Source: a virus. From it: DNA of 62,240 nt. The stretch lies in the IMG/VR virus record IMGVR_UViG_3300045988_042951. One strand, written 5' to 3'. The translations under genes and the position numbers were made by a program. A model generated the notes under the pieces. The model was not told the DNA's origin. It saw only the letters and a list, made by a program, of their open reading frames with translations, and did no database searches. Positions 6,031 through 62,240 of this stretch are shown here, one piece after another (positions within the stretch are counted from its first letter, which is position 1; the number at the start of each line of letters is the position of its first letter).

Positions 6031-7211
6031 GTATGGCAAAACACACAATGCAGGAATTATACCAATGGCAGGCATTACCACTAAACATCAAAGTCAGAAT
6101 GACAGCAGAGAGAATAAGAAACTGGGTAAATGAATTTGGCGAAGATGGAGTGTATCTGTCATTTAGCGGTGGAAAAGACAGCACAGTTTTAGGACACATA
6201 ATCAGAGAGGTTTGCGGATATAAAAATATTCCTTTTGTGTTCGTAGATGTTCCGACACAATATCCAGAGTTAAAGCAGTTTGCACAGACATTCGATAATC
6301 TTGTAATTTTAAAACCTAAAATTTCATTCGCAGAAGTTTGTGAAAAGTATGGATTTCCGATGATTAGCAAGGAAGTGTCAAATTGCGTAAGCGGTGCGAG
6401 AAAATACGTTAAATACCTTGGCAGCCAAAAATCTAATAACACAATCTTGACAGACAGTTCCGTATGCTTGCTACATGGCAGATCTGCTAGAAATAGACAG
6501 GAGAATAAACAAGCAGAACCAACAGTTCCAATGTTTGCAGACGGGAGTTATCCCTAGTGGTTCAGAATATGGGTTACGCAGACTGAATGGAGAACTGACA
6601 GATAGTAAAGGCAATTATAGTCAGTTTAATCAAGAAAAATATAAGTTTTTTCTTGATGCACCGTTTGAGATAAGTGAAAAGTGCTGCGATGTCATGAAGA
6701 AAAATCCGGCGCACAAATACGAAAGAGAAACCGGAAGAAAACCATTCATTGCAACAATGGCAACGGAAAGTTCATTGAGAGCCAAAAAGTGGATGCAAGA
6801 GGGATGTAATGCATTTGATGCAAAACATCCTCATAGTAAGCCAATGACTTTTTGGACAGAACAAGATGTTTTGCTTTACATCAAAGAAAACAACTTGCCT
6901 ATATGTTCTGTTTATGGTGAGGTAGTCACGGATTATGAAGCTATGGGGCAATGCGAAAATCAGATGTCATTTGCAGATTTTGGGATTTTGACAAGGAAAG
7001 ACCATTGCTGAAAACAACAGGATGCCAAAGAACAGGTTGCGTACTGTGCGGATTCGGATGCCACTTAGAGAAAGAAAGCAGATTTTTAAGACTGAAAGAA
7101 ACACATCCTAAATTCCATAATCTGCTATATGTCTTGAAAAATAATGGTGTGACATACGCAGAAGCTATTGATTGGGTGAACGAACACGGAAATATGAATA
7201 TTAAGTATTAA
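6027..7211 (+). pseudogene. PAPS-reductase/PP-loop family gene split over three reading frames
   Basis: Family motifs lie in different frames. SFSGGKDS is in frame 0 (6027-6557). DAPFEISEKCC, MATES and FWTEQDVLLYI are in frame +1 (6451-7011). LKTTGCQRTGCVLCGFGCHLE and THPK are back in frame 0 (6939-7211). Confidence 0.7.
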
Positions 7212-18344: not shown

Positions 18345-18506
18345 CACTTACTGTATGCCGTGCCTATGGCAGCATGCTAGTGCTAATGCCGTATTTATCG
18401 CGTTTTTCAAAAAGGAAAATAAAATATTTGTCGCTTTTATGTCGCCGAGCTGTCGCTTTGAGCGACTTTTTTTATGTCAAAATATAAACAAAAGGAGGGA
18501 TAGCAG

Positions 18507-50356: not shown

Positions 50357-51048
50357 TGGCAGAGCTTGTAAAGATTGAGGGAACAGAGCTGGCAATCCGT
50401 GAGTACAACGGACAGAGAGTTGTCACATTCAAGGATATTGACACAGCACACCATAATAAAGATGGAATTACAAGAAGAAGTTTTAGTAGAAATAAAAAGC
50501 ACTTTATAGAAGGTGAAGATTATTTTGTTTTAAACAAGGCAAATTCTAATGGGACAAATTGTCCCATTAGAAATATCACTATTCCCAATAAGGGGATAAC
50601 AGTATTAACGGAAAGCGGTTATTTGCTTATAGCAAAATCATTTACCGATGACTTATCATGGCAGGTACAGCGACAGCTTGTCAACGCATACTTCAAGGCT
50701 AAGGCACAGCCGCAGACAGCGGTTGCACCGGTGCAGGTTGAGGACACCAAGTACAACACAAGCAATACGCTGGTACCTAAGGTCAAGAGCTGGTATATCC
50801 GCAACAGAAGCAACCTTGAATGGGTTGCATATAAGACGAATTGTAAGCTTTCATACGTTTGCCATAGGCTCTTGAAGCGCATAGGCGAAGAGTATGACTT
50901 AGATGCGGCAAAGAAGATATACGAGGAAGAAACAGGACATGCACCGCAGTACCCACTTGATGTTGTGGACTATTTCCCTCAATTATCAGCAATGGCTACA
51001 TGGTGGTTGAATGACCTGATTAAAGTAATTGAGGAAGAAAATAAATGA
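50356..51048 (+). CDS. ORF6N-domain antirepressor-like protein
   Basis: IREYNGQRVVTFKDIDTAHHNKDGITRRSFSRNKKHFIEGEDYF. Confidence 0.65.
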   Translation: MAELVKIEGTELAIREYNGQRVVTFKDIDTAHHNKDGITRRSFSRNKKHFIEGEDYFVLNKANSNGTNCPIRNITIPNKGITVLTESGYLLIAKSFTDDLSWQVQRQLVNAYFKAKAQPQTAVAPVQVEDTKYNTSNTLVPKVKSWYIRNRSNLEWVAYKTNCKLSYVCHRLLKRIGEEYDLDAAKKIYEEETGHAPQYPLDVVDYFPQLSAMATWWLNDLIKVIEEENK

Positions 51049-51187
51049 AAAGATGGCACCCCGGAAATGGGGTGCTGTTTTTTGTAAGCAATTTTTAATG
51101 GGACAATTTGTCCCTTTTAAGCATTGCAAAGGTATGTACGTTAAACGTACTTTTAAAATGTATTGTTTGATGAAAGGAGCATAAGCG

Positions 51188-51409
51188 ATGGAAAATTCAA
51201 GAATTGAAATCAAAACAGACGGAGCTTTTTCGCAGATATTGATTGACGGCAAGAAACTCAATGGTGTAAGGAACTATAAGTTAGAACATGCGGCAGGCGA
51301 AGCGCCAACATTAACACTAGACCTCAACGCATTTGATTTAACCGTTGATGGGCAAATGCTATTGATGCAGAAGGGTGTCGGTGAGATTGATGTGAGTATA
51401 AAGGGGTAG
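51188..51409 (+). CDS. hypothetical protein
   Basis: ATG after AAAGGAGCATAAGCG. Confidence 0.5.
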   Translation: MENSRIEIKTDGAFSQILIDGKKLNGVRNYKLEHAAGEAPTLTLDLNAFDLTVDGQMLLMQKGVGEIDVSIKG

Positions 51410-51429
51410 CTGATAACTACCCCACAGTT

Positions 51430-51630
51430 TTAGCCCGAAATGCTTTCAGGAGCATTTGAAGCAATAGGACATTGAGGTAAATCACAATCATTGCCACAGC
51501 TAGTATAATCGCAACTTGCAATACCTTTGGCATACTCAAAGCGTTCGGTTGTTGAAGCGTTGATGTAATTAACTCTAATCGAATAGTCCTTGTTTTGGGT
51601 CGGGCAAAAACCATATACTCTTTTGTACAT
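51430..51630 (-). CDS. small Cys-rich hypothetical protein (66 aa)
   Basis: The minus strand reads GAGAGGAGGTGTATT-ATG, giving MYKRVYGFCPTQNKDYSIRVNY...CDYTSCGNDCDLPQCPI. Confidence 0.6.
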   Translation of the reverse strand: MYKRVYGFCPTQNKDYSIRVNYINASTTERFEYAKGIASCDYTSCGNDCDLPQCPIASNAPESISG

Positions 51631-51698
51631 AATACACCTCCTCTCAACGGAGATTGTAACACGAAAATAATTAAAATCCACTTTTACGATTTACTATA

Positions 51699-51776
51699 CT
51701 AAAATCTGTGTACATTCTGTAAACAAAGCGTAACCTAGATTAGATAAGATAAGTATAGTATAGATAAGATTAATAT
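51699..51776 (+). repeat. dispersed ~75-nt repeat, copy B (upstream of the lysin/tail-tip genes)
   Basis: CTAAAATCTGTGTACATTCTGTAAACAAAGCGTAACCTAGATTAGATAAGATAAGTATAGTATAGATAAGATTAATATG. It matches 25899-25970. Confidence 0.8.
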
Positions 51777-51901
51777 GTATATATATTATATATAAATATA
51801 TATATTAATAAATACAGTAAATTATATAGATAATATAAAGGGCAGTCCGTGTGGGCTGTCTTTTTTATTAGATAAAATTAGACACATGGAGGGATAAGAC
51901 T

Positions 51902-52654
51902 ATGAATATCGGTAACAGAGTATTTGCAGTTCAAGGCTATGTTGTGACGCAGACATACGCACAGCACGTTGAAGCTGTCAAGGGCGGCGGTTATGCACAG
52001 GGAGTTGACCTTGTGCCACAGAAGGACAACAGATACATTCAGAGCAATATTGTGGCTCATTCGGACGGCACAGTGCTTTATGCAGGCAATGGTGACGGCT
52101 ATGGCAATGCGGTGTGGATATTACACAATGACAACTATGTGACTGGATACGGACATATGAGAGAGCTTAGGGTTAAGACAGGTGACAAGGTTAAGCGTGG
52201 CGATGTGATTGGTGTTGTCGGCAACACAGGCCATTCAACAGGTATTCATCTTCATTTTGAAGTGCGCAAGTACAAGAAGCCCTACACTGTCAACGCTGGT
52301 GATTTCTGGGGCGTAAACTCTTTTATGAACACTTCAAAGTTTGACTGGGTAGACCCGACACCTTATATTAACGCTGATTTGCCTAATCAGACACCTAAGG
52401 TCGAAGCAAGCACCGATAAGTACTATCGTGTGCAGGTTGGAGCTTTCGAGAACAAGGCTTATGCAGTGAATATGGCAAGAGGCGTGCGCTCCAAGGGATT
52501 TGATACAATAATCAAGTATTACGAGGGCAACTACCATGTACAGGTTGGAGCATACGAAGCGTACTGGCGCGCCGTGGCTATGAAAGCAAGACTGATTGCG
52601 GCGGGCTATAAAACATTCATTACAAATAAGGCAGGGCAGGACATAGCATTTTAG
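51902..52654 (+). CDS. endolysin: M23 (LytM-type) peptidase with C-terminal SPOR domain
   Basis: GNTGHSTGIHLHFEV (HxH) and upstream GVDL. C-terminal YYRVQVGAFENKAYA...YHVQVGAYEAYWRAVAMKARL SPOR repeats. Confidence 0.8.
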   Translation: MNIGNRVFAVQGYVVTQTYAQHVEAVKGGGYAQGVDLVPQKDNRYIQSNIVAHSDGTVLYAGNGDGYGNAVWILHNDNYVTGYGHMRELRVKTGDKVKRGDVIGVVGNTGHSTGIHLHFEVRKYKKPYTVNAGDFWGVNSFMNTSKFDWVDPTPYINADLPNQTPKVEASTDKYYRVQVGAFENKAYAVNMARGVRSKGFDTIIKYYEGNYHVQVGAYEAYWRAVAMKARLIAAGYKTFITNKAGQDIAF

Positions 52655-52703
52655 CACCTATCACTGATAGGTGCTTTTATTATGCCTCGGAAAGGCGGTA
52701 ACA

Positions 52704-53120
52704 ATGGCATATGGCGGTTATTTGTTTAAGGTGGGAGAATATATCGTCCCACAGAAATTCATCAAAGCTGACACATATAGGTCTTATGTGAATATGCAGG
52801 ACATAGACGATTACCCGGACGCTAATGGTTATTTACATCGCAACGCGGTTGAACTTAAAGCGGTGAAGATTGAGTTTGATGTGCGTGCCATGCTGACAGG
52901 TAGTGAACTGGAAGAGCTTATGTCTAATATCCGTAACAACTATACAAGCGCAAGAGGCAGAGAGTGTATCATTACCGCTTTTATTCCTGAGTACAACGAC
53001 TATGTGACGCAAAAGGGCTATCTCGCTGACTTCCAGCCGCAGATATATGGCACATACGGCGGTGAGATACATTACAGCTCATTCAGAATGGCATTTATTG
53101 GGGGTGTATACGATGGTTGA
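52704..53120 (+). CDS. distal tail protein (Dit)-like
   Basis: Lies before the large tail-tip protein. ATG 52704 follows AAAGGCGGTAAC. Confidence 0.5.
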   Translation: MAYGGYLFKVGEYIVPQKFIKADTYRSYVNMQDIDDYPDANGYLHRNAVELKAVKIEFDVRAMLTGSELEELMSNIRNNYTSARGRECIITAFIPEYNDYVTQKGYLADFQPQIYGTYGGEIHYSSFRMAFIGGVYDG

Positions 53121-56100
53121 TTACGGTTTACAGGATTTGTTTTACGCCCCTAACGTAGATAAACAGCTCATTATTACAACAGATGACGGCTCCGTGACAA
53201 TCACCAACACGGAGCTACATCAAGAGAGCTTTGAACTGACAGAAAGTTTATGCTCCGAGAGTGAGTTGACATTCGGAGCGTGTGAAGCGGCGGCGGTTAA
53301 GTTCACAATATCAAATGTTTTTACATCGCTAAAGGATAAGTGGATAACCGTTAAGATGGTGCTTAACGGCGACAACTCTAATCCATTCATATTTGGACGC
53401 TACAAGGTTGTATCGGATAAACCAACGGCTGATAGAACAAAACGCGAAATTGAGGCTTACGATGCGCTGTACGACGTGATTAACGCCGATGTCGTTGGTT
53501 GGTATAACAACATACTGCCTAACACAGAGACTTATGTAACATTAAAGCAATTCAGGAATAACTTTTTCAATTATTTTGGCATTGTACAAAAAGATATAAC
53601 GCTTGCTAACGATGATATGACGACAAGCAGAACTGTTGATGCAGATGAATTGAGTGGAAGCCAAGTACTCAATGCTATATGCGAAATCAACGGTTGCTTA
53701 GGACACATCGGGCGCACCGGGCAATATGAATATGTTTATCTTGACAGCACATCACCAATAACTATCAGTAAGAACCATTATATCAGTGCTGACTATCAGG
53801 ACTATATGGTGGCACAGATTGATAAATTGCAGATAAGACAGGATGAGGACGATATAGGTTCGATTGTTGGCACAGGCAGCAATACTTATGTAATCGAGAA
53901 TAATTTTCTTGTGTATGGGAAGGATGCGGCACAGTTAAAGACTATTGCGACTAATGCGTTCAATCGCATTAAGAGTATTACATATCGCCCGGCAGAAATA
54001 TCAAGTGTAGGAAACCCATGTATTGAAGTCGGTGACGCAATTAAGCTGTCAACTAAGTATGCAGAGCTAACCACTTATGTCTTAGAACGCTCCCTGAAAG
54101 GCATACAAGCCCTTACAGACAGTTTTACGGCACAGGGCGAACAATTACGCACCACACAAATAAACAGCTCTAATAAGTCGATTACGCAACTCAAAGGCAG
54201 AGTAAATCGGTTGACCCACAATGTTGACCAAAACAAAGCGGAAATATTGAATGTTGAAGAAGGATTAAAAAACGAGATAACGCAGACTGCATCGGAACTA
54301 GAAATTAAGATACAAAGTTTGCAATCGCAGATAGACGGTGAAATAACAGTAATCAACGGACATGGAGTACCAACGCTCTATAATTACCCTGCATACAACT
54401 GGACAGCAAGCCCTAAGACAGGTGATATTCTTGTTGAGGGACTAAAGTTCACCTATTCGGATGAAGTGTATCGTAAACATCAGCGAACTTTATTTTTTGA
54501 TGAAGATAGCATAACAACTTATCGTTTTATCAAAAAAGATAATGTGTGGACGTGGGAGCCGATAGTCGACACTGAATATTCAGTGATTCAAAAGCAGATA
54601 GCAGACTTGAACGTAACTACACAGGGGATTACTCAGAGCGTTGAGCAGTTGTCAACCAAGGTAACGAATGATTATATCACACAAATTGACGCCAAGACGC
54701 TCGTATCGACTACAGCAGACGGAATCAAGGAGGATATATCTAAGACATACACCACTAGGGATTACATCAACACATTGAGCGCAGAGTTTAACAGGACAGC
54801 AGAAGGGCTTACTGCACAGATAAGTGAAGTAAATGAAGCACTTGACGGTGCAAATGAAGTCTACACCATACAAGGAACACCAACCTTGCGGAATTACCCT
54901 GCATACAACTGGACATCGGGACCAGTGGTTGGCGATAAACTTACGCAAGGATTGCGCTTTACTTATTCGGATGTAAGCTATAAGAAACACAACAGAGCAC
55001 TTGTGTATGACGAGGTTGCCGGCAAGACGTATAGATTCATTAAGAATGGCGATACGTGGGGATTCTCCGATGTTGGCAATACCGAGTTTTCATGGGTCAA
55101 CAAGAAACTTGCTGAGTACAAGGCGACAGTTGATGGAGTTTCCGCCGATTTGTCAAAGTTTGAAACAAAAGTCGGTTCGGATTATATAACCAAGGTTGAC
55201 GCTCAGGCAAGTATTAATTATTCGGTGGAAGAACTATCTAGAGAGTTCAGTAAGACTTACGCAACACAAGAAGCTCTTAGCGATTATTCAACCACTACGC
55301 AGATGAATACCGCGATAGCCGAAAGTGCAAAGGGCATTAAAATTGAAATCAGTAAAAGCTACGCAACGCAAAAAACTGTGGATGATATGAAGACCACATT
55401 AAATGCCACGGCAGAAGGGCTGAGCGCAAAAGTTGGAAAAAACGAACTGATAACAGAAATCAATGCAAGTGCTGAGCAAGTCAAAATAGCATCGAGCAAG
55501 CTTGACTTACAAGGTTTGGTTACGATTTCTTCTCTGAAAGAAAGCGGACAGACTGTAATTAATGCGGACAATATTACGACAGGGACTATTAATGCTCTTG
55601 CAATTGATGGCTGTACAATAACAGGTAGTTCAGTTGCGTTTGCTAATGACACGGGTGGATGGAATACGATTATTAATTCAGCAGGATGGTGGATGGTTGG
55701 TAAGAACCCTGCCACGGGAGAAGAAAATGCTTTGAATACACCTGCATACTTTATGGATAATAGTGGTTTCTCGAGCATGTATGTAGGCGGACTTCTTAGA
55801 TATCGCAATGAAGCAGAGTTTTTGACGGGCGCGTATGCGAGTGGCTCAGGAGCTTACTACTCGCAACGTGCTAGATGGTACAACATTGCGCTAATGGCTA
55901 ATAGCACATCTGATATACGATATAAGAATGATATACAGTACTTGGACGATGAAGAGAACATGGAAGAACTTTTCGACAGTCTTTTGCCAGCAGCGTTCTA
56001 TTATAACAAGGGAACAGGCTATATTGAGACGCAAAGGCACTTAGGTTTTATCGCACAAGATATCGAAAAAGCTATTGCAAATTTAAGAATTACCAATGAT

Positions 56101-56238
56101 ATGGCATTATTTGACCATGAGGATGAGAAAAAGCTGGGTGTTGATAAACAAGAGCTAATAGCCCTGTGTGTATGGCAAATTCAAAAATTAAAAGCCCGTG
56201 TCAAGGAGCTTGAAACAAATATAGGAGGCACAACATGA
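53113..56238 (+). CDS. tail-tip/fibre protein with internal 170-aa duplication and C-terminal S74 intramolecular-chaperone domain
   Basis: The start overlaps the Dit-like stop. Repeat P(T/N)L(Y/R)NYPAYNWT at 54371 and 54881. C-terminal SDIRYKNDI...GFIAQDIEKA...ELIALCVWQIQKLKARV. Confidence 0.75.
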   Translation: MVDYGLQDLFYAPNVDKQLIITTDDGSVTITNTELHQESFELTESLCSESELTFGACEAAAVKFTISNVFTSLKDKWITVKMVLNGDNSNPFIFGRYKVVSDKPTADRTKREIEAYDALYDVINADVVGWYNNILPNTETYVTLKQFRNNFFNYFGIVQKDITLANDDMTTSRTVDADELSGSQVLNAICEINGCLGHIGRTGQYEYVYLDSTSPITISKNHYISADYQDYMVAQIDKLQIRQDEDDIGSIVGTGSNTYVIENNFLVYGKDAAQLKTIATNAFNRIKSITYRPAEISSVGNPCIEVGDAIKLSTKYAELTTYVLERSLKGIQALTDSFTAQGEQLRTTQINSSNKSITQLKGRVNRLTHNVDQNKAEILNVEEGLKNEITQTASELEIKIQSLQSQIDGEITVINGHGVPTLYNYPAYNWTASPKTGDILVEGLKFTYSDEVYRKHQRTLFFDEDSITTYRFIKKDNVWTWEPIVDTEYSVIQKQIADLNVTTQGITQSVEQLSTKVTNDYITQIDAKTLVSTTADGIKEDISKTYTTRDYINTLSAEFNRTAEGLTAQISEVNEALDGANEVYTIQGTPTLRNYPAYNWTSGPVVGDKLTQGLRFTYSDVSYKKHNRALVYDEVAGKTYRFIKNGDTWGFSDVGNTEFSWVNKKLAEYKATVDGVSADLSKFETKVGSDYITKVDAQASINYSVEELSREFSKTYATQEALSDYSTTTQMNTAIAESAKGIKIEISKSYATQKTVDDMKTTLNATAEGLSAKVGKNELITEINASAEQVKIASSKLDLQGLVTISSLKESGQTVINADNITTGTINALAIDGCTITGSSVAFANDTGGWNTIINSAGWWMVGKNPATGEENALNTPAYFMDNSGFSSMYVGGLLRYRNEAEFLTGAYASGSGAYYSQRARWYNIALMANSTSDIRYKNDIQYLDDEENMEELFDSLLPAAFYYNKGTGYIETQRHLGFIAQDIEKAIANLRITNDMALFDHEDEKKLGVDKQELIALCVWQIQKLKARVKELETNIGGTT

Positions 56239-56462
56239 GTAGTAATTATGACATTAGGATATTCCGCAATTCGTTAATATCCTACATTAGGAAGTCACCG
56301 ATAGAACCGGAGGTTAAGCTTCTGGTTCTAAAGGATTTAACCGCTCAGACAGAGAAGGACGCAGACGAGATAGTTGTCCGCGAGGCAGCGGAATTAGAAA
56401 AAGCGGCGCAACTTAAAAGAAATGCCGATAAGGCATCAGAGCAGAAAGAAAGCGAGGCATAA
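56235..56462 (+). CDS. hypothetical protein (75 aa)
   Basis: ATGA overlap with the upstream gene. Confidence 0.5.
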   Translation: MSSNYDIRIFRNSLISYIRKSPIEPEVKLLVLKDLTAQTEKDADEIVVREAAELEKAAQLKRNADKASEQKESEA

Positions 56463-56465
56463 ACT

Positions 56466-56843
56466 ATGGCAGTAGAATATAATCAGCATACATGGGGGTA
56501 TGGCGAGGAGCTTACACCCGATAAGTTTAATAATATTGAGGGCGGTGTTAAGGCAAATGCGGATGCAATTAATGAGGTAAATAATAATTTAAACATTTCA
56601 AGCCTTGAAATGGGAACAGCTACAACTCCAACCGAAGGGCAAGCAACTATTTATTATTCTAAAACTCATGATAGACCAGCAGATATTATCATCGCCACAG
56701 CTCTAAGTGCACACGATGTTGTAAGAATTGTGCAAATTACAGGCTCATATAATAATAGATTCTTGGCAGAATGCTGGAATGATAGTTTCAAGGACTTTGT
56801 CAATTGTACCTTTAGTTACCTTGCAATTTGGAACAAGGCATAA
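56466..56843 (+). CDS. small fibre-tip / receptor-binding-type protein: constant N-terminus plus currently expressed C-terminal cassette C1
   Basis: The N-terminus MAVEYNQHTWGYGEELTPDKFNNIEGGV resembles Gram-positive phage fibre N-termini. Crossover site A lies at codons 38-42. Confidence 0.65.
   Translation: MAVEYNQHTWGYGEELTPDKFNNIEGGVKANADAINEVNNNLNISSLEMGTATTPTEGQATIYYSKTHDRPADIIIATALSAHDVVRIVQITGSYNNRFLAECWNDSFKDFVNCTFSYLAIWNKA
56577..56595 (+). repeat. crossover site A (GTAAATAATAATTTAAACA)
   Basis: A perfect 15-bp inverted copy lies at 57464-57478. A 15/17 inverted copy lies at 57208-57224. All are in the same codon register. Confidence 0.65.
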
Positions 56844-56845
56844 CA

Positions 56846-57235
56846 TTATCCTAATTGTAATGCGTAGAATGTTGGAGTATATATTGACATATTGCCATCA
56901 GTAACGCACCAGAAATATATTGGTAATTCTTTACTTGTCTCAATACATTGGGCAAGATTTACATTTGTTTTTACAGCACCTTTCAATATTTGACCTTCAT
57001 AACTTTGAGCAAGTGCAAATGAATAGCCTGCTTCACCGCTTATTACAACATAACTGGTAAATCGGTCATCGCCAACTTCGACATATGCGTTGCCGAACAG
57101 CAACCATTTACCTGCGGTTAAATTGATGGTCTGTAAGATTGCCGAATCGTTTGTTACATTGATGGTTTCAACTTTGTTATATACACTTTTTTGAACATTG
57201 GATATTTTGTTTAAATTAATCTTTGTTTGAGTTAG
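56846..57235 (-). other. promoterless, start-less alternative C-terminal cassette C2
   Basis: The minus frame is open from the TAATAA at 57241-57236 down to the stop at 56846. It reads LTQTKINLNKISNVQKSVYNKVETINV...TPTFYALQLG*. There is no ATG or RBS (the ORF track only finds an internal TTG). Confidence 0.6.
57208..57226 (-). repeat. crossover site C (minus strand: ACAAAGATTAATTTAAACA)
   Basis: It shares TAATTTAAACA and 15/17 positions with site A, in inverted orientation and in frame. Confidence 0.5.
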
Positions 57236-57238
57236 TTA

Positions 57239-57478
57239 TTAATATTCTGCAACAATAGCCAAGCCGATATTACCTTTACCATCACTCCAGTCGAATGCAA
57301 AACTTGAATTGCTAAGTATTTTCTTGGGGAGCAATATATCCCCCGTGTTAGTTAGTACAAAAGCTATGTATTGTGTAGTATCAATACTGTTAAATTCAAC
57401 TACCTCGTTACCATCTGTACGCTGTTTGGTTTGAAAACGCATTTGAGCAAGTCTGGAGCGTGCTAAATTATTATTTAC
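57239..57478 (-). other. promoterless alternative C-terminal cassette C3
   Basis: The minus frame reads VNNNLARSRLAQMRFQTKQRTDGNEVVEF...GLAIVAEY*. The internal Met at 57442 has no RBS. The frame opens right after the recombinase stop. Confidence 0.6.
57464..57478 (-). repeat. crossover site B (minus strand: GTAAATAATAATTTA)
   Basis: Perfect 15-bp inverted repeat of 56577-56591. It lies 12 nt from the recombinase stop codon. Confidence 0.65.
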
Positions 57479-57490
57479 ATGGCTACGGCA

Positions 57491-58483
57491 TCACACTGTA
57501 GCCACATACTTCTCAAAGATAGTTCGTGTATGCTCCTCACCTATGTAACTGTAATGCTTGCCTGTAACGCTTTGGTCTTTGTGTCCAAGATATTCCCCAG
57601 CATCATGCACCGAACCACCACGCTTGATGATGTTGGTGGCGGTGGTCTTACGGAATAGGTGAGGATATATGCGGCGGTCAATCCTTGCGTTGTTCTTAAT
57701 GCGTGTAAGCGTTGCCCTTACGCTATCTTCACTCATTGACTTATCTGTGCGGCTTTGGGTAAAAAGCGGCTTATCGGGGCTGTTAGAGCCGTTCCTTGAC
57801 ACGATATAGTCGCGCAGATACTTGTAAGCCACATCATCAAGATAGACTGTTCTGTAATTCTGCGTTTTGGGTGCGAATATCCGCACTGTCTTATTATTCC
57901 AGTCCACATCGGACACTTTCACATTGATTAGCTCACCGACACGGACAGCGGTTGAACGAAGAAATTCTATAATTGCCCTGTCCTTAGGAGCAGTGCAACC
58001 GCTTTTTAATTGTTCATATTCTGTCGGCTCCATGTGGTCAATCGGCTTTTCAATTTCCTTGTATGCCTCGATTGCGTCACATGGGTTGCGGTCAATTATA
58101 TTCTGTTTGCACAACCAACGATAAAATGCCGATATATTACGGCGGTGATTGTTAAGCGATACAGCGGAATTGTTAGGTGCAAGACTGCCTAAGAAGCCCT
58201 CAATGTCGATTGAGGTTATATCGGCTATTGACTTGTTAGCGTATTTGATAAGTTTGTTGACAGTATCAAGGTAATAGCTTGCAGTTTTGGGCGATATTTT
58301 CGGTGCTTTTATCTTATTAAACAAGTCAAATATCTGCTCATCAGTGTAAGTGCTTGGTTTATCCACAATATTCACAGTCAACAGTTCACAGCTTATGGCA
58401 TCAACCAAGACAGCCATAGCCTTAGCTGACAGAAAATCGGTCATTTTGGTTACAACATTGTTAATAATTGTCGCTTTGTTCAT
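57491..58483 (-). CDS. tyrosine site-specific recombinase (integrase/Rci/Xer family)
   Basis: SAM-like N-domain. Catalytic pattern ...STAVRVGEL..., YPHLFRKT (HxxR), LGHKD, GKHYSY (Tyr). Confidence 0.9.
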   Translation of the reverse strand: MNKATIINNVVTKMTDFLSAKAMAVLVDAISCELLTVNIVDKPSTYTDEQIFDLFNKIKAPKISPKTASYYLDTVNKLIKYANKSIADITSIDIEGFLGSLAPNNSAVSLNNHRRNISAFYRWLCKQNIIDRNPCDAIEAYKEIEKPIDHMEPTEYEQLKSGCTAPKDRAIIEFLRSTAVRVGELINVKVSDVDWNNKTVRIFAPKTQNYRTVYLDDVAYKYLRDYIVSRNGSNSPDKPLFTQSRTDKSMSEDSVRATLTRIKNNARIDRRIYPHLFRKTTATNIIKRGGSVHDAGEYLGHKDQSVTGKHYSYIGEEHTRTIFEKYVATV

Positions 58484-58740
58484 AGTAAAACCTCCGTATT
58501 TTGTAATGTTTTGTCAAATTTTGGTTGTCGATTGTTCAGATTTTAGTACAATAAAGTGCTATTATGGACTTGTCCAATAAGGACAGGTTCAAGCTTTGGT
58601 GAGCAAGGGGCAATGTTGATTGGCGTTGGCATTGTTCCTTGCGAGTGGGGGTTATTAGTTGTCGACATTAGCGAACAAATGTTCTATAATTGGGACATCG
58701 CTACTGGAAAACGTGTGGTTGTAAAGGGGAAATGCAAAAC

Positions 58741-58863
58741 ATGAAAAAAAATGCGGATTACTACCGAAGAAGAATAATTGACTTAATTAACAAAACGGAT
58801 GATTTGTGGATATTGGACCATATACTAAAATTTGTTCAAGGAATGACAAAGGAGAGGGAATAA
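58741..58863 (+). CDS. very small hypothetical protein (40 aa)
   Basis: MKKNADYYRRRIIDLINKTDDLWILDHILKFVQGM. Ends in the bidirectional terminator. Confidence 0.4.
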   Translation: MKKNADYYRRRIIDLINKTDDLWILDHILKFVQGMTKERE

Positions 58864-58877
58864 CCCTCTCCTCTTTT
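58851..58877. terminator. bidirectional terminator
   Basis: GGAGAGGG-AATAA-CCCTCTCC with flanking T/A runs. Confidence 0.7.
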
Positions 58878-59238
58878 ACTCATCTAACAGTTTCTTTGCT
58901 ATTTCAGCAAGATTTTCCCAGTCTTTGACGGTTAGCCTTGTTAAGGCTGATACAAATTTTTTCTGGAAATTGTCATCTTTTAAAGCCATCGTCTCAGTGA
59001 CAAAAGCTCCGATTTCCTGCTCCTTGGTTCTTGATTTGAACATTTCCCCGATGCCATTCCGAAGCCATTCTTCATTGACGTTAAATTCTTTACATATCAA
59101 TGCTATAGCTGAATCACTTGGAATACTTCTACCCATTTCGTATGTTGCAACAGTGTTTCTTTTCACTTTTATTTTGTCAGCAAATTCTTGTTGCGTCAAA
59201 TTCAGAGCATTTCTTATCTTCCTAATACGCTCATTCAT
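58876..59238 (-). CDS. CI-like XRE-family repressor
   Basis: IRKIRNALNLTQQEFADKIKVKRNTVATYEMGRSIPS HTH. Divergent from the early promoter. Confidence 0.8.
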   Translation of the reverse strand: MNERIRKIRNALNLTQQEFADKIKVKRNTVATYEMGRSIPSDSAIALICKEFNVNEEWLRNGIGEMFKSRTKEQEIGAFVTETMALKDDNFQKKFVSALTRLTVKDWENLAEIAKKLLDE

Positions 59239-59280
59239 TTATTTTCACACCTCCTTCCTGCAAATTTATATTATCACGCC

Positions 59281-59355
59281 TTGTTGAAAAAATCAACAAA
59301 AATATGTTGACAAATGTTTTTTAATGACATATAATTGTTTTACAATCAACAGAAA
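59281..59355 (+). promoter_or_regulatory. early rightward promoter TTGACA-17-TATAAT flanked by operator-like inverted repeats
   Basis: TTGTTGA-N5-TCAACAA at 59281-59299. TTGACA at 59307-59312. TATAAT at 59330-59335. Partial second site TTGTTTTACAATCAACA downstream. Confidence 0.7.
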
Positions 59356-59367
59356 AGAGGTGAGAAC

Positions 59368-60042
59368 GTGAACGAACTTGTACATTTAGAGCATGATGAA
59401 GCTGTATGCAACAGTTTGGAGGTTGCTGAAAAGTTTGGTAAAAGACATGACAAGCTGATTTCAGAAATAGAAAGAATGTACTCTGATTTAATCGGAAAAG
59501 GGTGTGCCCAAAATGGTGGAGACCCCCTATTTGTAAAAAGTAGTTACATTCATCCACAAAATAAACAGGAATATCCAATGTACCTTATGAACCGAGACGG
59601 CTTTTCATTATTGGTAATGGGATTTACCGGAAAGAAAGCGTTAGATTGGAAACTTAAATACATAAACGCTTTTAATCAGATGGAGAATTACATCAGAGAA
59701 AAACAGTCGCAGTCTTGGATTGAAACAAGAACAGTCGGTAAGCTGTCGAGAAAAGCTGAAACAGATGTATTAAAGCAGTTAGTTGAATATGCCAAACAGC
59801 AGGGAAGCGAACACGCTGATATGCTGTATATGACATATTCAAAACTGGCAAACAAAACTGTCGGTGTGGCTGATAGAGATACCGCAACCGCTAAACAACT
59901 GACGAACTTATCCGTCACAGAAAATATCATATTGAAAGTAGTTGAAGAAGGTATCAGCCAACAGCTCCATTATAAAGAGATTTACAAGAATTGTAAAGAC
60001 CGATTGGCGATAGTCAATCAGTTAGCGTATTTGACAGTATGA
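59368..60042 (+). CDS. Rha-family phage regulatory protein (copy 2)
   Basis: GTG after AAGAGGTGAGAAC. VCNSLEVAEKFGKRHDKLISEIER...YPMYLMNRDGFSLLVMGFTGKKALDWKLKYINAFNQME. Confidence 0.8.
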   Translation: MNELVHLEHDEAVCNSLEVAEKFGKRHDKLISEIERMYSDLIGKGCAQNGGDPLFVKSSYIHPQNKQEYPMYLMNRDGFSLLVMGFTGKKALDWKLKYINAFNQMENYIREKQSQSWIETRTVGKLSRKAETDVLKQLVEYAKQQGSEHADMLYMTYSKLANKTVGVADRDTATAKQLTNLSVTENIILKVVEEGISQQLHYKEIYKNCKDRLAIVNQLAYLTV

Positions 60043-60089
60043 AAGGAAGTGAGCTTTTGAAAAAAATGACATACCGACAGAAACGAGAT

Positions 60090-60482
60090 TTACTCAATAA
60101 GTTCGAACCGTTCATAATCGGTGCAGTTCAACTCATAAGTGCTTTGGCTGGTGCTGCTACTGGAATAGCTATCTGCTACTTTTTCTAAATGATATGTAGC
60201 CGTGGCGGTTACAAGAGCCACAATAAAAGGGATTAGGATATTTCTTAAAAATTCGAGAAAAACATATTCTTTATAGTGTTTTCCTTTAACAGATAAAACA
60301 TAAGAAAACACCGTTCTATCATTGGAAACATCTACGTTTCTGAAAAAGCCTAATTCTTTTAAATCTAAAAAAGCTTGGTAAATATCTTCACCGGAATATT
60401 TACCGAATTTTGAAAGTTCAATGGAGCCAACCATATTTGAAGATACTTTTTTCAAAATAGTTCTTTCAATTTTTAAAAGCAT
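60090..60482 (-). CDS. membrane-anchored hypothetical protein
   Basis: C-terminal-half TM segment ILIPFIVALVTATATY. Lone reverse-strand gene in the early region. Confidence 0.55.
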   Translation of the reverse strand: MLLKIERTILKKVSSNMVGSIELSKFGKYSGEDIYQAFLDLKELGFFRNVDVSNDRTVFSYVLSVKGKHYKEYVFLEFLRNILIPFIVALVTATATYHLEKVADSYSSSSTSQSTYELNCTDYERFELIE

Positions 60483-60534
60483 AATAATACCTCCGGTTTT
60501 TAAAACATTATATCACAGAAGGGAAGTGAATTGA

Positions 60535-60684
60535 ATGAGTGAGCAGGAAAAAGAGATTATTCGTAAGCTGTCCGACACAATCCCTAAGCTTGACGATAAC
60601 AAGAAGAACTACATTCTTGGTGTAGCCGAGGGAATGGCAATAGCTAGAGAAGCAGAGAAAAGCGAAAACAGCAGAAAGGAGTAA
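60535..60684 (+). CDS. small hypothetical protein (49 aa)
   Basis: ATG after GGGAAGTGAATTGA. Sequence: MSEQEKEIIRKLSDTIPKLDDNKKNYILGVAEGMAIAREAE. Confidence 0.45.
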   Translation: MSEQEKEIIRKLSDTIPKLDDNKKNYILGVAEGMAIAREAEKSENSRKE

Positions 60685-60687
60685 GAC

Positions 60688-60864
60688 TTGAAGAAAGTGT
60701 TCGACATGAACAATATAGGCTCAATTCAGTGTGTCGCACTTGCTACAACTGAAAAGGACAAGGACGAACTATTGAAAAGAGCCTATTGGGTGATGTTTTC
60801 ACCCGAGGAAAATGATATTAACTGCTGGGTTCTGTGTCGAGATAAATCGGAGGTTCCGAGTTAG
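60688..60864 (+). CDS. small hypothetical ORF (58 aa)
   Basis: TTG 60688 or ATG 60706. Converges on and overlaps 60818..61009. Confidence 0.3.
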   Translation: MKKVFDMNNIGSIQCVALATTEKDKDELLKRAYWVMFSPEENDINCWVLCRDKSEVPS

Positions 60865-61009
60865 ACCATTCTAAATGAATCCACGAATAGTCCGCAGGGA
60901 ATCCGCTTGATATTCCGATGTACTTCCAACCAAGACTTACATATTTGGAAATTATCTCATTGATTCTATCATCGGACAGTCCATTGCATTTAATCATTTT
61001 CTTTTCCAT
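60818..61009 (-). CDS. small hypothetical protein (63 aa)
   Basis: The minus strand reads AAGAGGTGATACT-ATG GAA AAG. The longer ORF-track version starts in the intergenic region. Confidence 0.5.
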   Translation of the reverse strand: MEKKMIKCNGLSDDRINEIISKYVSLGWKYIGISSGFPADYSWIHLEWSNSEPPIYLDTEPSS

Positions 61010-61067
61010 AGTATCACCTCTTTTCTGATTAAAGAATAAGAGGATTATAGCACAAGAAAGGAGAAGA

Positions 61068-61793
61068 ATGAACGAGTTAATCAAAGTTGACGCTGATGCA
61101 CAGGTTGTATCAGCGAGAGAACTACATGAAGCCCTTGGAGTTGAGAAAAGATTTAGTGCTTGGTTTGAGACAAATTCTCAAGGGTTCGTTGAGGGAGAAG
61201 ATTTTACAAGTGTACTTTCAGGTACGGTTGTAAATAACGGAGCACACAGAGAGTTGCAGGATTATAACTTGTCTGTCGATATGGCAAAGCACATCTGCCT
61301 TATGAGTAGAACAGATAAAGGTAAGGCTTGCAGGCAATACCTTATAGATGTTGAAAAGGCTTGGAACACACCAGAGCAGGTAATGGCAAGAGCATTAAAG
61401 ATTGCTAATCAAACAATAGACAGTTTGAAAGAGAATAACATAAGGCTTATTGAAGCTAATGAGAGAATGAAGCCGAAGGAGATTTTTGCTGACGCCGTGG
61501 CTACAAGCAAGACTTCAATTCTTGTCGGAGACTTGGCGAAGCTGATATGCCAGAACGGCTACCAAATAGGACAGAAGCGGTTATTTGACTGGTTACGCAA
61601 CAACGGATATTTAGTCAAGAGCGGAAGTTCTTACAATATGCCTATGCAGAGATATGTTGAACAAGGCTTATTCGAGGTCAAGGAAAGCAACGTGCAGAAT
61701 CCAGACGGAAGTGTAAGAACTACACGCACGACAAAGGTTACAGGCAAAGGACAGGTCTATTTTGTTAATAAGTTTTTAGGGAGAGGAGAATGA
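61068..61793 (+). CDS. phage antirepressor (AntA/Bro-N-like N-terminus plus KilAC C-terminus)
   Basis: VSARELHEALGVEKRFSAWF...FVEGEDF at the N-terminus. C-terminal FADAVATSKTSILVGDLAKLICQNGYQIGQKRLFDWLRNNGYL. Confidence 0.8.
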   Translation: MNELIKVDADAQVVSARELHEALGVEKRFSAWFETNSQGFVEGEDFTSVLSGTVVNNGAHRELQDYNLSVDMAKHICLMSRTDKGKACRQYLIDVEKAWNTPEQVMARALKIANQTIDSLKENNIRLIEANERMKPKEIFADAVATSKTSILVGDLAKLICQNGYQIGQKRLFDWLRNNGYLVKSGSSYNMPMQRYVEQGLFEVKESNVQNPDGSVRTTRTTKVTGKGQVYFVNKFLGRGE

Positions 61794-61794
61794 A

Positions 61795-62240
61795 ATGGCA
61801 ATCAAAGCATACAAAGGGTTCAAAAAGGATATGACATGCAAAGGCTTTCAGTACGAAGAGGGCAAAGAGTACGAAACTGACAAGGCAGAAGTGTGCGAAA
61901 CAGGCTTTCATGCGTGCGAGTATCCGTTAGACTGCTTTAAATATTATGCTCCGAGTGAGAGCGTATTCCACGAAGTTGAACAGGGCGGAGAAATTAGCCG
62001 CAAAGGTGATGACACGAAGCTTGCATCGACCAAGATTAAAATAGGCGTGAGCTTAAACATTGCTGGCATGGTTAAAGCAGCCATTGAATACACCAAGAGC
62101 AGAACAGATAAAGAAGCCGACAGCAATTCAAACTACGGAGCTTCATCCGCAACAGGCTACAAGGGAGCTTCATCCGCAACAGGCGACTACGGAGCTTCAT
62201 CCGCAACAGGCTACAAGGGAGCTTCATCCGCAACAGGCGA
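61795..62240 (+). CDS. 5' part of the wrap-around repeat protein (continues at 2..334)
   Basis: ATG 61795 lies one nt after the upstream TGA. MAIKAYKGFKKDMTCKGFQYEEGKEYE...CETGFHACEYPLDCF.... It runs off the window end inside the GASSATG repeats. Confidence 0.75.
   Translation, partial: MAIKAYKGFKKDMTCKGFQYEEGKEYETDKAEVCETGFHACEYPLDCFKYYAPSESVFHEVEQGGEISRKGDDTKLASTKIKIGVSLNIAGMVKAAIEYTKSRTDKEADSNSNYGASSATGYKGASSATGDYGASSATGYKGASSATG
62131..62240 (+). repeat. 27-nt coding tandem repeat (N/D-Y or Y-K, then G-A-S-S-A-T-G); continues at 1..103
   Basis: Four complete units read directly. The final 30 nt equal window positions 1-30. Confidence 0.9.

What the first reader, a model, noticed from the sequence alone, without database searches (positions are those of the whole stretch)
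56466..58483. Shufflon-like invertible cassettes that could swap the C-terminal domain of a fibre-tip protein, next to a tyrosine recombinase
Seen in sequence:
- Gene 56466..56843 (+) encodes 125 aa. Its first ~42 aa (MAVEYNQHTWGYGEELTPDKFNNIEGGVKANADAINEVNNNL) look like the conserved N-terminus of Gram-positive phage fibre proteins.
- Its codons GTA AAT AAT AAT TTA (56577-56591) recur as a perfect 15-bp inverted copy at 57464-57478.
- A second inverted copy (15/17 matches, contiguous TAATTTAAACA) lies at 57208-57224.
- Behind each inverted copy, on the minus strand and in exactly the same codon register (VNNNL / INLN), runs an open frame with no start codon or RBS of its own. These are 57463->57239 (ARSRLAQMRFQ...GLAIVAEY*) and 57207->56846 (KISNVQKSVYNKVETINV...TPTFYALQLG*).
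- The two minus-strand cassettes are separated only by TAATAA. The distal one abuts the stop of the expressed gene tail-to-tail (2 nt).
- Inversion between A and B, or between A and C, would fuse the constant N-terminus in frame to a different C-terminal domain, giving three alternative tips.
- The nearest recombinase gene is the tyrosine recombinase, whose stop codon is 12 nt from site B.

Established knowledge: this is the logic of the R64 shufflon (Rci tyrosine recombinase, PilV tips) and of the Mu Gin / P1 Cin / p15B Min fibre switches (serine invertases).

Inference: a tyrosine-recombinase-driven multi-cassette host-range switch in a Gram-positive phage.

Caveat: short AT-rich 15-mers can match by chance genome-wide. 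The case rests on proximity, inverted orientation, shared codon register and the start-less ORFs.
Basis: partly seen in the sequence, partly recalled or inferred. Interest (0 to 1): 0.9.

Follow-up and report, generated by a model that had tools for sequence, protein, structure and literature searches.

The report
Invertible tail-tip cassettes in gut phage
This gut phage carries a DNA-flipping switch that swaps the outer end of a small tail protein for a different one. Near-identical phages from other people are caught in the flipped state, so the switch is real, but it is a new example of a kind already described in Bifidobacterium prophages (the Rin shufflon).

Summary

- **Sites.** A 13-bp core, AAATAATAATTTA, lies inside codons GTA AAT AAT AAT TTA (VNNNL). 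It occurs exactly twice in the 62-kb window, at 56579(+) and 57464(-). A degenerate third copy lies at 57212-57224(-). Each minus-strand copy heads a start-less open frame in the same codon register.
- **Inversion in nature.** Six metagenome contigs carry the same 902-bp block (99.4-99.8% identical) inverted exactly at the two perfect sites. Five of them also show the recombinase flank, 98.7-99.2% identical and not inverted.
- **Cassette C.** Relatives with a perfect C site occur in both the N|A and N|C states. In this genome the C site is degenerate, and no relative with that degenerate site was found in the N|C state.
- **Spread.** The same block also inverts at the end of a genuine tail fibre in an unrelated P2-like prophage. 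About 20 different C-termini are joined to the same 42-residue N-terminus.
- **Enzyme.** The adjacent Xer-like tyrosine recombinase is the inferred invertase. A separate large serine recombinase is the integrase.
- **Closest known system.** The Rin shufflon of Bifidobacterium and Eggerthella prophages.

The parts
56466..56591 (+). Constant 5' segment: start codon plus 42 codons (MAVEYNQHTW...INEVNNNL), preceded by GAGG at 56454-56457. This is the only part of the locus with translation signals.
   Evidence: The same 42-residue N-terminus is joined to about 20 unrelated C-termini in public proteins.
56577..56591 (+). Site A: GTAAATAATAATTTA, with the 13-nt crossover core AAATAATAATTTA at 56579-56591, translated as VNNNL.
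   Evidence: It is the left breakpoint of the inversion seen in L269-L273.
56592..56843 (+). Cassette A: the currently expressed C-terminal 83 codons plus the stop.
   Evidence: It lies inverted and silent next to the recombinase in L269-L273.
56846..57211 (-). Cassette C: a start-less frame, NKISNVQKS...YALQLG*, about 120 codons, tail-to-tail with gene A. The model is an all-beta jelly roll.
   Evidence: It is expressed as an N|C fusion in relatives (P0015, L013, L143, L254-L263).
57208..57224 (-). Site C, degenerate: the core reads AAAGATTAATTTA (11/13). Probably inactive or weak in this genome.
   Evidence: The same degenerate copy is present in every A-C-B block (myovirus L004 and L015; L269). 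All N|C genomes have a perfect copy instead.
57239..57463 (-). Cassette B: a start-less frame, ARSRLAQMRFQ...LAIVAEY**, 74 codons plus two stops.
   Evidence: The exact N|B fusion (116 aa) is in public assemblies (P0033).
57464..57478 (-). Site B: a perfect inverted copy of site A, 12 nt downstream of the recombinase stop codon.
   Evidence: It is the right breakpoint of the inversion in L269-L273.
56577..57478 (.). The 902-bp invertible segment (A, C, B), bounded by the two perfect sites.
   Evidence: It is inverted at 99.4-99.8% identity in L269-L273, between collinear flanks. Its 900-bp core (56578-57477) is also 99.4% identical to a block of an otherwise unrelated myovirus prophage, where it also inverts.
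57491..58483 (-). Xer-like tyrosine recombinase, 330 aa; the inferred invertase.
   Evidence: Pfam Phage_int_SAM_4 plus Phage_integrase. Closest solved structures are XerA and XerD, and all catalytic residues align (R181, H274, R277, H301, Y311). No arm-binding domain was detected. Three lineages of this recombinase (53-69% identical) accompany the same core in three phage backgrounds.
16983..18344 (+). Large serine recombinase, 453 aa. It is not part of the switch. It is the phage's likely integrase, which leaves the tyrosine enzyme free for inversion. The attP crossover lies near 18365-18370.

Best explanation
This is a phage-encoded multiple-inversion switch (a shufflon) of the Rin type.

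**How it works.** Only the first 42 codons of gene 56466 have a ribosome-binding site and a start codon. They end in a 13-bp recombination core that also codes for NNNL. Two start-less alternative 3' ends lie downstream on the opposite strand, each headed by an inverted copy of the core. Conservative site-specific recombination between the core in the gene and the perfect inverted core next to the recombinase gene flips the 902-bp segment. The same N-terminus is then fused in frame to cassette B instead of cassette A. Cassette C can be fused in the same way in relatives whose C site is perfect. In this genome that site has decayed.

**Likely function.** The product is most likely a small trimeric tail-tip or receptor-binding protein, so the flip changes what the virion binds.

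**Likely enzyme.** The catalyst is most likely the adjacent Xer-like tyrosine recombinase. Integration is handled by a separate large serine recombinase.

**Shown versus inferred.** Shown: the sites, the frames, the natural inverted forms, the reciprocal junctions, the intact catalytic residues, and the separate integrase. Inferred: which enzyme does the flipping, the receptor-binding role, and the rate of flipping.
For: 1. **Inverted state of this phage.**
   - L264 is 100% identical to window 50466-62240 and is in the N|A state.
   - In L269-L273, window 56577-57478 is inverted with 2-5 mismatches in 902 bp. The right flank (recombinase, repressor, early genes) is collinear at 98.7-99.2% and the left flank is also collinear.
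   - The short contig L274 carries the same N|B junction.
   - Junctions are reciprocal: N|B reads gaggtAAATAATAATTTAgcacgc, and recombinase-flank|A reads gccatgtAAATAATAATTTAaacattt.
   - The exact 116-aa N|B fusion is in the protein collection.
2. **Second background.** In a P2-like prophage, L004 10683-11582 equals L015 6886-5987 at 100% identity, inverted. The downstream flank is 99.97% identical. Fibre|A, fibre|B and fibre|C proteins all exist.
3. **A<->C inversion in relatives.** L013, L143 and L262 compared with L001, L014 and L165.
4. **Junctions share the core.** Nearly every junction listed shares the 13-nt core, and the flanks segregate independently on either side of it. A G at core position 13 travels with the cassette, and the -1/-2 bases travel with the left flank.
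5. **Contig breaks.** Three contigs (L001, L013, L031) and one truncated protein (P0021) end within 15 nt of a core.
6. **Many tips.** About 20 unrelated C-termini follow the same N-terminus exactly after (V/I/A)NNNL. Tails A, B and C are unrelated to each other.
7. **Recombinase.** Catalytic residues are intact. It sits 12 nt from site B. Three recombinase lineages go with the same core. No other recombinase was found in the window except the large serine one.
8. **Integrase.** In L057, L068, L076 and L083, homology to the window stops 24 nt after the serine recombinase stop. In L057 it is followed by the 3' two-thirds of a sigF/sigG-type gene. The serine enzyme is retained at 92-97% in contigs where the tyrosine enzyme is truncated or deleted.
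9. **Tail role.** The same cassettes end a protein in the fibre position of the P2-like prophage. That protein hits tail-fibre PHROGs and phage 80alpha upper fibre gp68. The cassette C model is a jelly roll resembling a cyanophage short-fibre carbohydrate-binding domain and TNF-like trimeric lectins.
Against: - No read-level data were available, so flipping within one population of this phage is not shown. The samples with the N|A form and those with the N|B form that were listed do not overlap.
- No experiment links the tyrosine recombinase to the sites. Homologues at 40-57% identity in other viral contigs have no such sites.
- In the cotJC prophage and in the myovirus, this recombinase is the last phage gene before host DNA, which is the position of an integrase.
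- Many relatives keep perfect sites but have lost the recombinase.
- The 125-aa protein and its fusions match no Pfam or PHROG family. Its own structure model failed, with pLDDT 40. The cassette C model is only moderate, with pLDDT 65.
- The C site here has 2 mismatches in the core.
Confidence: 0.85

Rival explanations
1. The switch is real, but another recombinase does the flipping: the phage's large serine recombinase, a host enzyme, or a recombinase of a co-resident prophage acting in trans. The neighbouring tyrosine recombinase would then be an integrase or a resolvase.
For: - The window encodes a second recombinase.
- Homologues of the tyrosine enzyme sit at prophage ends next to host genes.
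- Relatives without it keep perfect sites.
- Distant homologues have no such sites nearby.
Against: - The serine enzyme has its own junction, about 24 nt after its stop codon, with an unrelated sequence (...GCCGTGCCTATG|). That junction is used for integration into a sporulation sigma-factor gene.
- Only about 15 bp is conserved at the inversion sites, and only on one side. This fits Rci/Rin-type tyrosine sites and does not fit the two symmetric half-sites of serine invertases (inference from established knowledge).
- Three diverged lineages of the tyrosine enzyme co-occur with the same core in three phage backgrounds. In two of them the core lies within 12 nt of the stop codon or overlaps it.
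- Recombinases 97% identical flank different host loci, which argues against a role in choosing the integration site.
Confidence: 0.12
2. The tyrosine recombinase has two jobs. It integrates the prophage in some lineages (the cotJC prophage and the P2-like prophage) and also inverts the cassettes. The cores would be secondary sites of an integrase.
For: - It sits in the canonical int-repressor position in the window.
- It is the terminal gene next to host DNA in L002, L165, L254, L258 and L004.
- PHROG assigns it to the integrase family phrog_1.
Against: - Host junctions upstream of int differ among L002, L165/L254 and L258, although the recombinases are 97-100% identical. The junctions show no resemblance to the core.
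- No arm-binding domain was detected.
- In the window's own lineage the serine recombinase marks the prophage end.
Confidence: 0.15
3. There is no active switch. The repeats only mark module boundaries, where rare recombination over evolutionary time has produced mosaic phages now fixed in different arrangements.
For: - Left flanks of the inverted relatives are only 79-95% identical to the window, so the genomes are mosaics.
- Many relatives have lost the recombinase and must be locked.
- Both orientations were not seen in one sample.
Against: - The inverted block differs by 0-5 nt in 900-902 bp while the flanks stay collinear, so the events are recent.
- 13 bp is too short for homologous recombination (established knowledge).
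- The same clean, reciprocal event recurs in three phage backgrounds and at four different site pairs.
- Contigs break at the core in independent assemblies.
- An intact recombinase sits at the site.
Confidence: 0.04
4. The repeats are a chance AT-rich match, and the minus-strand frames are independent small genes or non-coding DNA.
For: The 15-mer is AT-rich. Genome-wide, 15 of 100 shuffles give at least 2 loose matches.
Against: - All the comparative evidence above argues against it.
- The cassettes never have their own start or ribosome-binding site in any relative. They are found translated only as fusions joined at NNNL.
Confidence: 0.01

Closest known systems
Rin shufflon of Bifidobacterium breve/longum prophages (Mavrich et al. 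2018, PMC6109161); also reported in Eggerthella lenta prophages (PMC8778435)
   Same: - Phage-encoded.
- A constant 5' part of a tail or receptor-binding gene is followed by several start-less 3' cassettes.
- A short asymmetric repeat heads each cassette and lies inside the expressed gene.
- A Xer-like tyrosine recombinase without an arm-binding domain flanks the locus on the side away from the constant part.
- A separate integrase is encoded elsewhere.
- Inversions are seen exactly at the repeats.
- The tails are mutually unrelated.
   Different: - Host phylum: Clostridia-type spore formers rather than Actinobacteria.
- Site: AAATAATAATTTA versus rix TTCCCTAACCC.
- Constant part: 42 residues versus 168.
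- The separate integrase is a large serine recombinase.
- The same core and the same cassettes serve both a non-contractile-type phage and a P2-like myovirus.
- In one lineage a four-site version also flips the lysis cassette.
- Homology between this recombinase and Rin could not be tested.
R64 / IncI1 shufflon (Rci tyrosine recombinase, sfx sites, PilV tips)
   Same: - A multiple-inversion system driven by a tyrosine recombinase.
- A constant N-terminus with exchangeable C-termini of an adhesin.
- Sites are conserved on one side only.
- The recombinase gene lies at the end of the cassette array.
   Different: - The target is a conjugative-pilus adhesin on a plasmid, not a phage tail protein.
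- The sites are 19 bp with a different sequence.
- No Rci family hit was obtained for this recombinase.
Mu Gin, P1 Cin, e14 Pin and p15B Min tail-fibre inversion systems
   Same: Inversion of a segment swaps the C-terminal, host-range-determining part of a phage tail fibre. Min is a multi-site version.
   Different: - Those systems use small serine invertases with 26-bp dyad sites, a 2-bp crossover and a Fis-dependent enhancer.
- Their segment also carries a fibre-assembly chaperone.
- Here there is no small serine invertase in the genome and no chaperone gene in the segment.
Type I restriction-modification hsdS shufflons with tyrosine recombinases (reviewed in PMC9881135)
   Same: A tyrosine recombinase sits next to inverted, start-less half-genes that are swapped into one expressed specificity gene.
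   Different: - The target is a DNA-specificity subunit.
- The repeats are usually longer and lie within conserved coding regions.
- These systems are chromosomal, not phage-borne.

Membership tests
Rin-type phage shufflon (functional kind) | The locus lies in the tail or receptor-binding module of a phage. | tested here: met
   It lies directly after the DUF6711 protein, the 1063-aa Peptidase_S74 tail protein and a 75-aa gene. In the P2-like prophage it lies directly after baseplate J and I.
Rin-type phage shufflon (functional kind) | One constant 5' segment with translation signals, plus several start-less 3' cassettes on the opposite strand. | tested here: met
Rin-type phage shufflon (functional kind) | A short repeat inside the expressed gene and at the head of each cassette, in inverted orientation. 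| tested here: met
   There are two perfect copies and one degenerate copy in the window.
Rin-type phage shufflon (functional kind) | Inversions observed with breakpoints in the repeats. | tested here: met
   Shown by comparing independent assemblies. Not shown at read level within one culture.
Rin-type phage shufflon (functional kind) | A flanking Xer-like tyrosine recombinase without an arm-type DNA-binding domain. | tested here: met
   Pfam SAM_4 (residues 56-129) plus the catalytic domain (158-312). Residues 1-55 are unassigned. Best matches are XerA, XerC and XerD, and the catalytic residues align. Absence of an arm domain rests on the lack of any hit, not on a structure.
Rin-type phage shufflon (functional kind) | A separate integrase encoded elsewhere in the phage. 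| tested here: met
   The large serine recombinase at 16983-18344, with prophage-host junctions 24 nt after its stop codon in relatives.
Rin family by descent | The recombinase is orthologous to Rin. | not testable with these tools
   No Rin sequence could be retrieved. The phage collection holds no close annotated relative; the best is a Clostridium scindens phage integrase at 33% identity.
Rin family by descent | The crossover site matches rix (TTCCCTAACCC). | tested here: not met
   The core here is AAATAATAATTTA; the rix sequence is.
R64 shufflon | Rci-family recombinase and a PilV pilus adhesin as target. | tested here: not met
   No Rci model appears among the NCBIfam hits. The target lies in a phage tail module.
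Gin/Cin/Pin/Min serine-invertase fibre switches | A small serine invertase (about 190 aa, Resolvase domain) next to the invertible segment. | tested here: not met
   The only Resolvase-domain protein in the window is a 453-aa large serine recombinase 39 kb away.
Gin/Cin/Pin/Min serine-invertase fibre switches | The invertible segment carries a tail-fibre assembly chaperone gene. | tested here: not met
   The segment contains only the three tail cassettes.

The most novel reading that the evidence does not exclude
The cassettes may form a shared pool that moves between unrelated phages by site-specific recombination.

- One 13-bp core is served by at least three diverged recombinase lineages. 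It occurs in a non-contractile-type phage, a cotJC-integrated relative and a P2-like myovirus.
- The window and the myovirus share nothing at high identity except the 900-bp block, which is 99.4% identical and ends exactly at the two cores.
- This looks like recombinase-mediated cassette exchange between co-resident prophages, in effect an integron-like library of about 20 or more receptor-binding tips for gut Clostridia phages.
- In the four-site version the lysis cassette is itself invertible, and recombination between directly oriented sites deletes it. The same enzyme may therefore also toggle lysis competence or destroy it.
Probability: 0.3. Interest if true: 0.75.

Novelty: new member of a known kind. 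Interest (0 to 1): 0.55.

Why it matters
- **Spread of the mechanism.** Tyrosine-recombinase tip-swapping, so far described only for Actinobacteria prophages, is also widespread in uncultured phages of human-gut spore-forming Firmicutes.
- **A ready map for experiments.** The 13-bp site, the fusion point and about 20 natural tips give a plug-and-play scheme for testing or engineering host range in phages that have no cultured representative.
- **Annotation and assembly.** The switch explains why assemblies of these phages break at this spot. It also explains why annotation pipelines call the silent cassettes as orphan small genes.
- **Ecology.** Frequent loss of the recombinase, which locks the variant, and sharing of cassettes between unrelated phages are testable questions about how gut phages track changing host surfaces.

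Tried and rejected
- **Chimeric protein search.** A query joining the N-terminus and all three tails returned only two clusters. The full-library HMMER search and the exact-sequence look-up were far more informative.
- **Metagenome DNA scan.** The pattern AMYGADRTAAATAATAATTTA was too degenerate.
- **Genome scan.** The genome-contig scan gave one locus, a Eubacterium sp. MAG contig that ends inside the site.
- **Fusion look-ups.** This was solved through the cluster look-up.
- **Structure of the expressed protein.** The AlphaFold model of the 125-aa protein was unusable, with pLDDT 40.
- **Family searches.** Pfam and PHROG found nothing for the 125-aa protein, the fusions or the 75-aa neighbour.
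- **Cores near distant recombinase homologues.** A search for the core, or for any inverted repeat of 13 nt or more, next to homologues at 40-57% identity found none. The recombinase family as a whole is therefore not dedicated to this switch.
- **L003 as an integration site.** I considered that the junction of the N-terminus with a V-ATPase K gene in L003 marks an integration site. I left this open; it is a single contig from a single sample and may be an assembly chimera.
- **L255 as evidence of co-existing states.** I considered the head-to-head arrangement in L255 as proof of two states in one sample. I rejected this because the two arms carry different fibre genes, so it may join two different phages.
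Full report
**1. Observation**

- Gene 56466-56843(+) encodes 125 aa and has GAGG 8 nt before its ATG.
- GTAAATAATAATTTA at 56577-56591 has a perfect inverted copy at 57464-57478. A 15/17 copy lies at 57208-57224.
- Translating the minus strand from 57478 gives, in one frame, VNNNL-ARSRLAQ...AEY, two stops, then LTQTKINLNKISN...QLG and a stop.
- Neither cassette has a start codon or ribosome-binding site at its head.
- The stop of C is 2 nt from the stop of the expressed gene. The recombinase stop is 12 nt from site B.
- The 13-nt core AAATAATAATTTA occurs exactly twice in the 62-kb window.
- As a bare 15-mer match the repeat is weak evidence genome-wide. A perfect inverted repeat of 15 nt or more inside a 2.4-kb region arose in only 4 of 1000 simulations.

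**2. The same phage, flipped**

- Contig L264 (ENA ERZ28645172, 62.4 kb) is 100% identical to window 50466-62240 and is in the same N|A state.
It lies on contigs from six samples.
- In five of these contigs (L269-L273), window 56577-57478 is inverted with only 2-5 mismatches in 902 bp.
  - The right flank (recombinase, repressor, early genes) is collinear at 98.7-99.2%.
  - The left flank is collinear at 79-95%.
- The sixth, L274, is a 1.8-kb contig that carries the same N|B junction and part of the inverted block.
- The junctions are reciprocal. N-terminus|B reads gaggtAAATAATAATTTAgcacgc. Recombinase-flank|A reads gccatgtAAATAATAATTTAaacattt.
- This is what conservative site-specific recombination between sites A and B would produce.

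**3. The A<->C state**

- Relatives with a perfect site in front of C occur in both states: N|A with C silent (L001, L014, L165) and N|C with A silent (L013, L143, L262, L254-L263).
- The N|C fusion (P0015, 163 aa) is on 38 contigs.
- In the window the C site is AAAGATTAATTTA. The same degenerate copy is present in every A-C-B block seen, in both orientations of the block.
- No genome with the degenerate copy was found in the N|C state. The exact N|C fusion of the window is not in the collection.
- I therefore regard A and B as the reachable tips here, and C as a probably frozen cassette.

**4. A second, unrelated phage background**

- The only high-identity DNA shared between the window and a P2-like prophage (baseplate J and I, tail tube, tape measure; L004-L008) is window 56578-57477. 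This is 900 bp at 99.4% identity, ending exactly at the two cores.
- There the block follows a 230-residue fibre N-terminus (...RITDINNNL). That N-terminus hits tail-fibre PHROGs and phage 80alpha upper fibre gp68.
- L015 carries the same 900 bp at 100% identity but inverted, with a 99.97% identical downstream flank.
- Fibre|A (315 aa), fibre|B (306 aa, 11 contigs) and fibre|C (353 aa, in a two-cassette variant with perfect sites) all exist.

**5. The site**

- Across all loci nearly every junction listed has (G/A/T)T-AAATAATAATTTA. The exceptions are single-base variants (a cassette-linked G at position 13, and one T-to-G change) and the degenerate copies noted above.
- The sequence to the left varies: the constant gene, the recombinase 3' flank, the start of the lysis cassette, a terminator, or the myovirus flanks. 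The sequence to the right is the cassette. The two sides assort independently.
- A G at core position 13 travels with cassettes X and B'. The two bases left of the core travel with the left flank. The crossover therefore lies within the first 12 bases of the core.
- Conservation on one side only recalls the sfx sites of R64 and the rix sites of Rin.
- Three contigs (L001, L013, L031) and one truncated protein (P0021) end within 15 nt of a core. This is what population heterogeneity does to an assembly graph.

**6. How many tips**

- A full-library HMMER search found 30 clusters.
- About 20 are proteins of 116-163 aa that share only the first 42 or so residues and diverge exactly after (V/I/A)NNNL.
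- At least ten cassette types were seen at the DNA level: A, B, B', C, D, E, F, G, H and X.
- Tails A, B and C are unrelated in sequence.

**7. Which enzyme**

- The 330-aa protein at 57491-58483 is a two-domain Xer-like tyrosine recombinase. All catalytic residues align to XerD, and no arm-binding domain was detected.
- The window encodes one other recombinase, a 453-aa large serine recombinase at 16983-18344.
- That serine enzyme is the integrase of this phage group.
  - In L057, L068, L076 and L083, homology to the window stops 24 nt after its stop codon.
  - In L057 the adjoining DNA encodes the C-terminal two-thirds of a SigF/SigG-type sporulation sigma factor.
  - It is conserved at 92-97% in the very contigs in which the tyrosine enzyme is truncated or deleted.
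- The tyrosine enzyme is therefore dispensable for lysogeny in this lineage.
- Three lineages of it (53-69% identical) accompany the same core.
  - In the window type, the core lies 12 nt from the stop codon.
  - In the cotJC-prophage type, the core overlaps the stop codon.
  - In the myovirus, the recombinase lies 2.2 kb away.
- This is guilt by association, not proof.
- In the latter two lineages the enzyme is also the last phage gene before host DNA. However, recombinases 97-100% identical flank three different junctions. This argues against the tyrosine enzyme choosing the integration site.

**8. A larger version**

- In the cotJC prophage (L165, L254) there are four sites. The order is: constant gene -> A, C <- lysis cassette (118-aa gene, holin, M23/SPOR lysin, terminator) -> B', X <- recombinase.
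- L143 differs from L165 by two inversions, one of which flips the 1.5-kb lysis cassette.
- L254 differs from L165 by inversion of both the first (A, C) and the second (B', X) cassette pairs.
- L257 and L260 join A directly to the recombinase flank. This is the deletion expected from recombination between directly oriented sites, and it removes the lysis genes.

**9. What the protein does**

- Direct family evidence is absent.
- The indirect evidence is as follows.
  - Position: it lies directly after the large tail protein.
  - In the myovirus the same cassettes end a genuine fibre.
  - The N-terminus carries the W..GE.(L/I)T.DK.N..E.G motif, which is shared with more distant small proteins.
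  - The moderate-confidence model of cassette C (pLDDT 65, pTM 0.61) is a jelly roll. Its best matches are a cyanophage short-fibre carbohydrate-binding domain, TNF-like trimeric lectins and carbohydrate-binding modules.
- A small trimeric receptor-binding tip is the best reading, at about 0.7.

**10. Comparison with known systems and novelty**

- The closest known system is the Rin shufflon of Bifidobacterium prophages. It has a constant Rc segment, variable Rv cassettes, an 11-bp rix site, a flanking Xer-like armless tyrosine invertase and a separate integrase. It was described in 2018 as the first phage-encoded tyrosine invertase, and was later seen in Eggerthella.
- All functional features of that kind are met here. 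Descent from Rin could not be tested, and the site sequence differs.
- Searches of the held literature found no such system reported for Firmicutes phages. No cultured phage in the phage collection carries it.
- I file it as a new member of a known kind.
- Three features go beyond the published description: cross-morphotype sharing of core and cassettes, an invertible lysis cassette, and frequent loss of the recombinase.

**11. Limits**

- All evidence for inversion comes from comparing independent assemblies. None comes from reads of one culture.
- The enzyme assignment, the rate and the phenotype are inferred.

Noticed in passing
window 16983-18370; L057 4362-4899: The large serine recombinase marks the prophage end. 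In several relatives, homology to the window stops about 24 nt after its stop codon (...GCCGTGCCTATG|). In L057 it is followed by the 3' two-thirds of a SigF/SigG-type sporulation sigma-factor gene. This phage group therefore interrupts a sporulation sigma gene, like a skin element.
   Followed up: partly
L165 808-1680; L254 9860-10710; L002 1-940: A related prophage sits inside the spore-coat gene cotJC, with the tyrosine recombinase as its last gene. The exact junction differs between L002, L165/L254 and L258 (the last lies next to maf), although the recombinases are 97-100% identical.
   Followed up: partly
L143 2890-4127 versus L165 3238-4475: The 1.5-kb lysis cassette (118-aa gene, holin, M23/SPOR lysin) lies between two inverted cores. 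It is found in the opposite orientation relative to the tail genes in one contig.
   Followed up: partly
L257 and L260, 6001-7768: In these derivatives cassette A is joined directly to the recombinase flank. The lysis cassette and the second cassette pair are missing. This looks like deletion between directly oriented cores and should leave a lysis-defective prophage.
   Followed up: no
L011, L012, L014, L017-L023, L026, L030, L163, L182: The tyrosine recombinase is truncated to its last 124 codons, or almost wholly deleted, in about half of the related viral contigs. Most of these keep perfect cores; L011, L012 and L163 have a degenerate recombinase-side copy. These phages should be locked in one state unless served in trans.
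   Followed up: partly
L003 1712-2308 (protein P0002): One contig from one sample joins the constant N-terminus, right after the core, to a V-type ATPase K-subunit gene and further bacterial genes (BlaI/BlaR-like, CrcB, PheS). It is either off-target recombination at the core or an assembly chimera.
   Followed up: no
L255 6001-12492: An N|C gene is followed tail-to-tail by a complete N|A gene, a 77-aa gene and a second, different fibre gene on the other strand. This is a head-to-head join at a core: either recombination between two phages or an assembly path through the shared cassette A.
   Followed up: no
window 31333-34161: This 942-aa protein has a terminase-like nuclease end and an internal LAGLIDADG / homing-endonuclease domain (residues 373-454). 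This suggests an intein or homing-endonuclease insertion in the large terminase.
   Followed up: no
window 60090-60482(-) and L004 13312-13692(-): A 130-aa ORF with a hydrophobic stretch and no family hit shares about 70% nucleotide identity with the 126-aa ORF next to the recombinase of the myovirus prophage. Apart from the recombinase, it is the only other similarity between the two phages outside the cassette block.
   Followed up: no
window 1-103 and 62130-62240: The two ends of the window share a roughly 100-nt region of short tandem repeats (ORF MRMKLPCSLLRMKLRS...). This is consistent with a circular or terminally redundant complete genome.
   Followed up: partly
window 6027-7011: Two overlapping ORFs (6027-6557 and 6475-7011) both hit the PAPS-reductase domain, its N-terminal and C-terminal parts respectively. 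They may be one gene split by a frameshift.
   Followed up: no
L034 and L037, 7977-9450: Homologues of the tyrosine recombinase at 47-49% identity in other viral contigs lie directly upstream of a small regulator-like gene, an HNH gene and the terminase. No inverted cores lie nearby. Their role is unknown.
   Followed up: no
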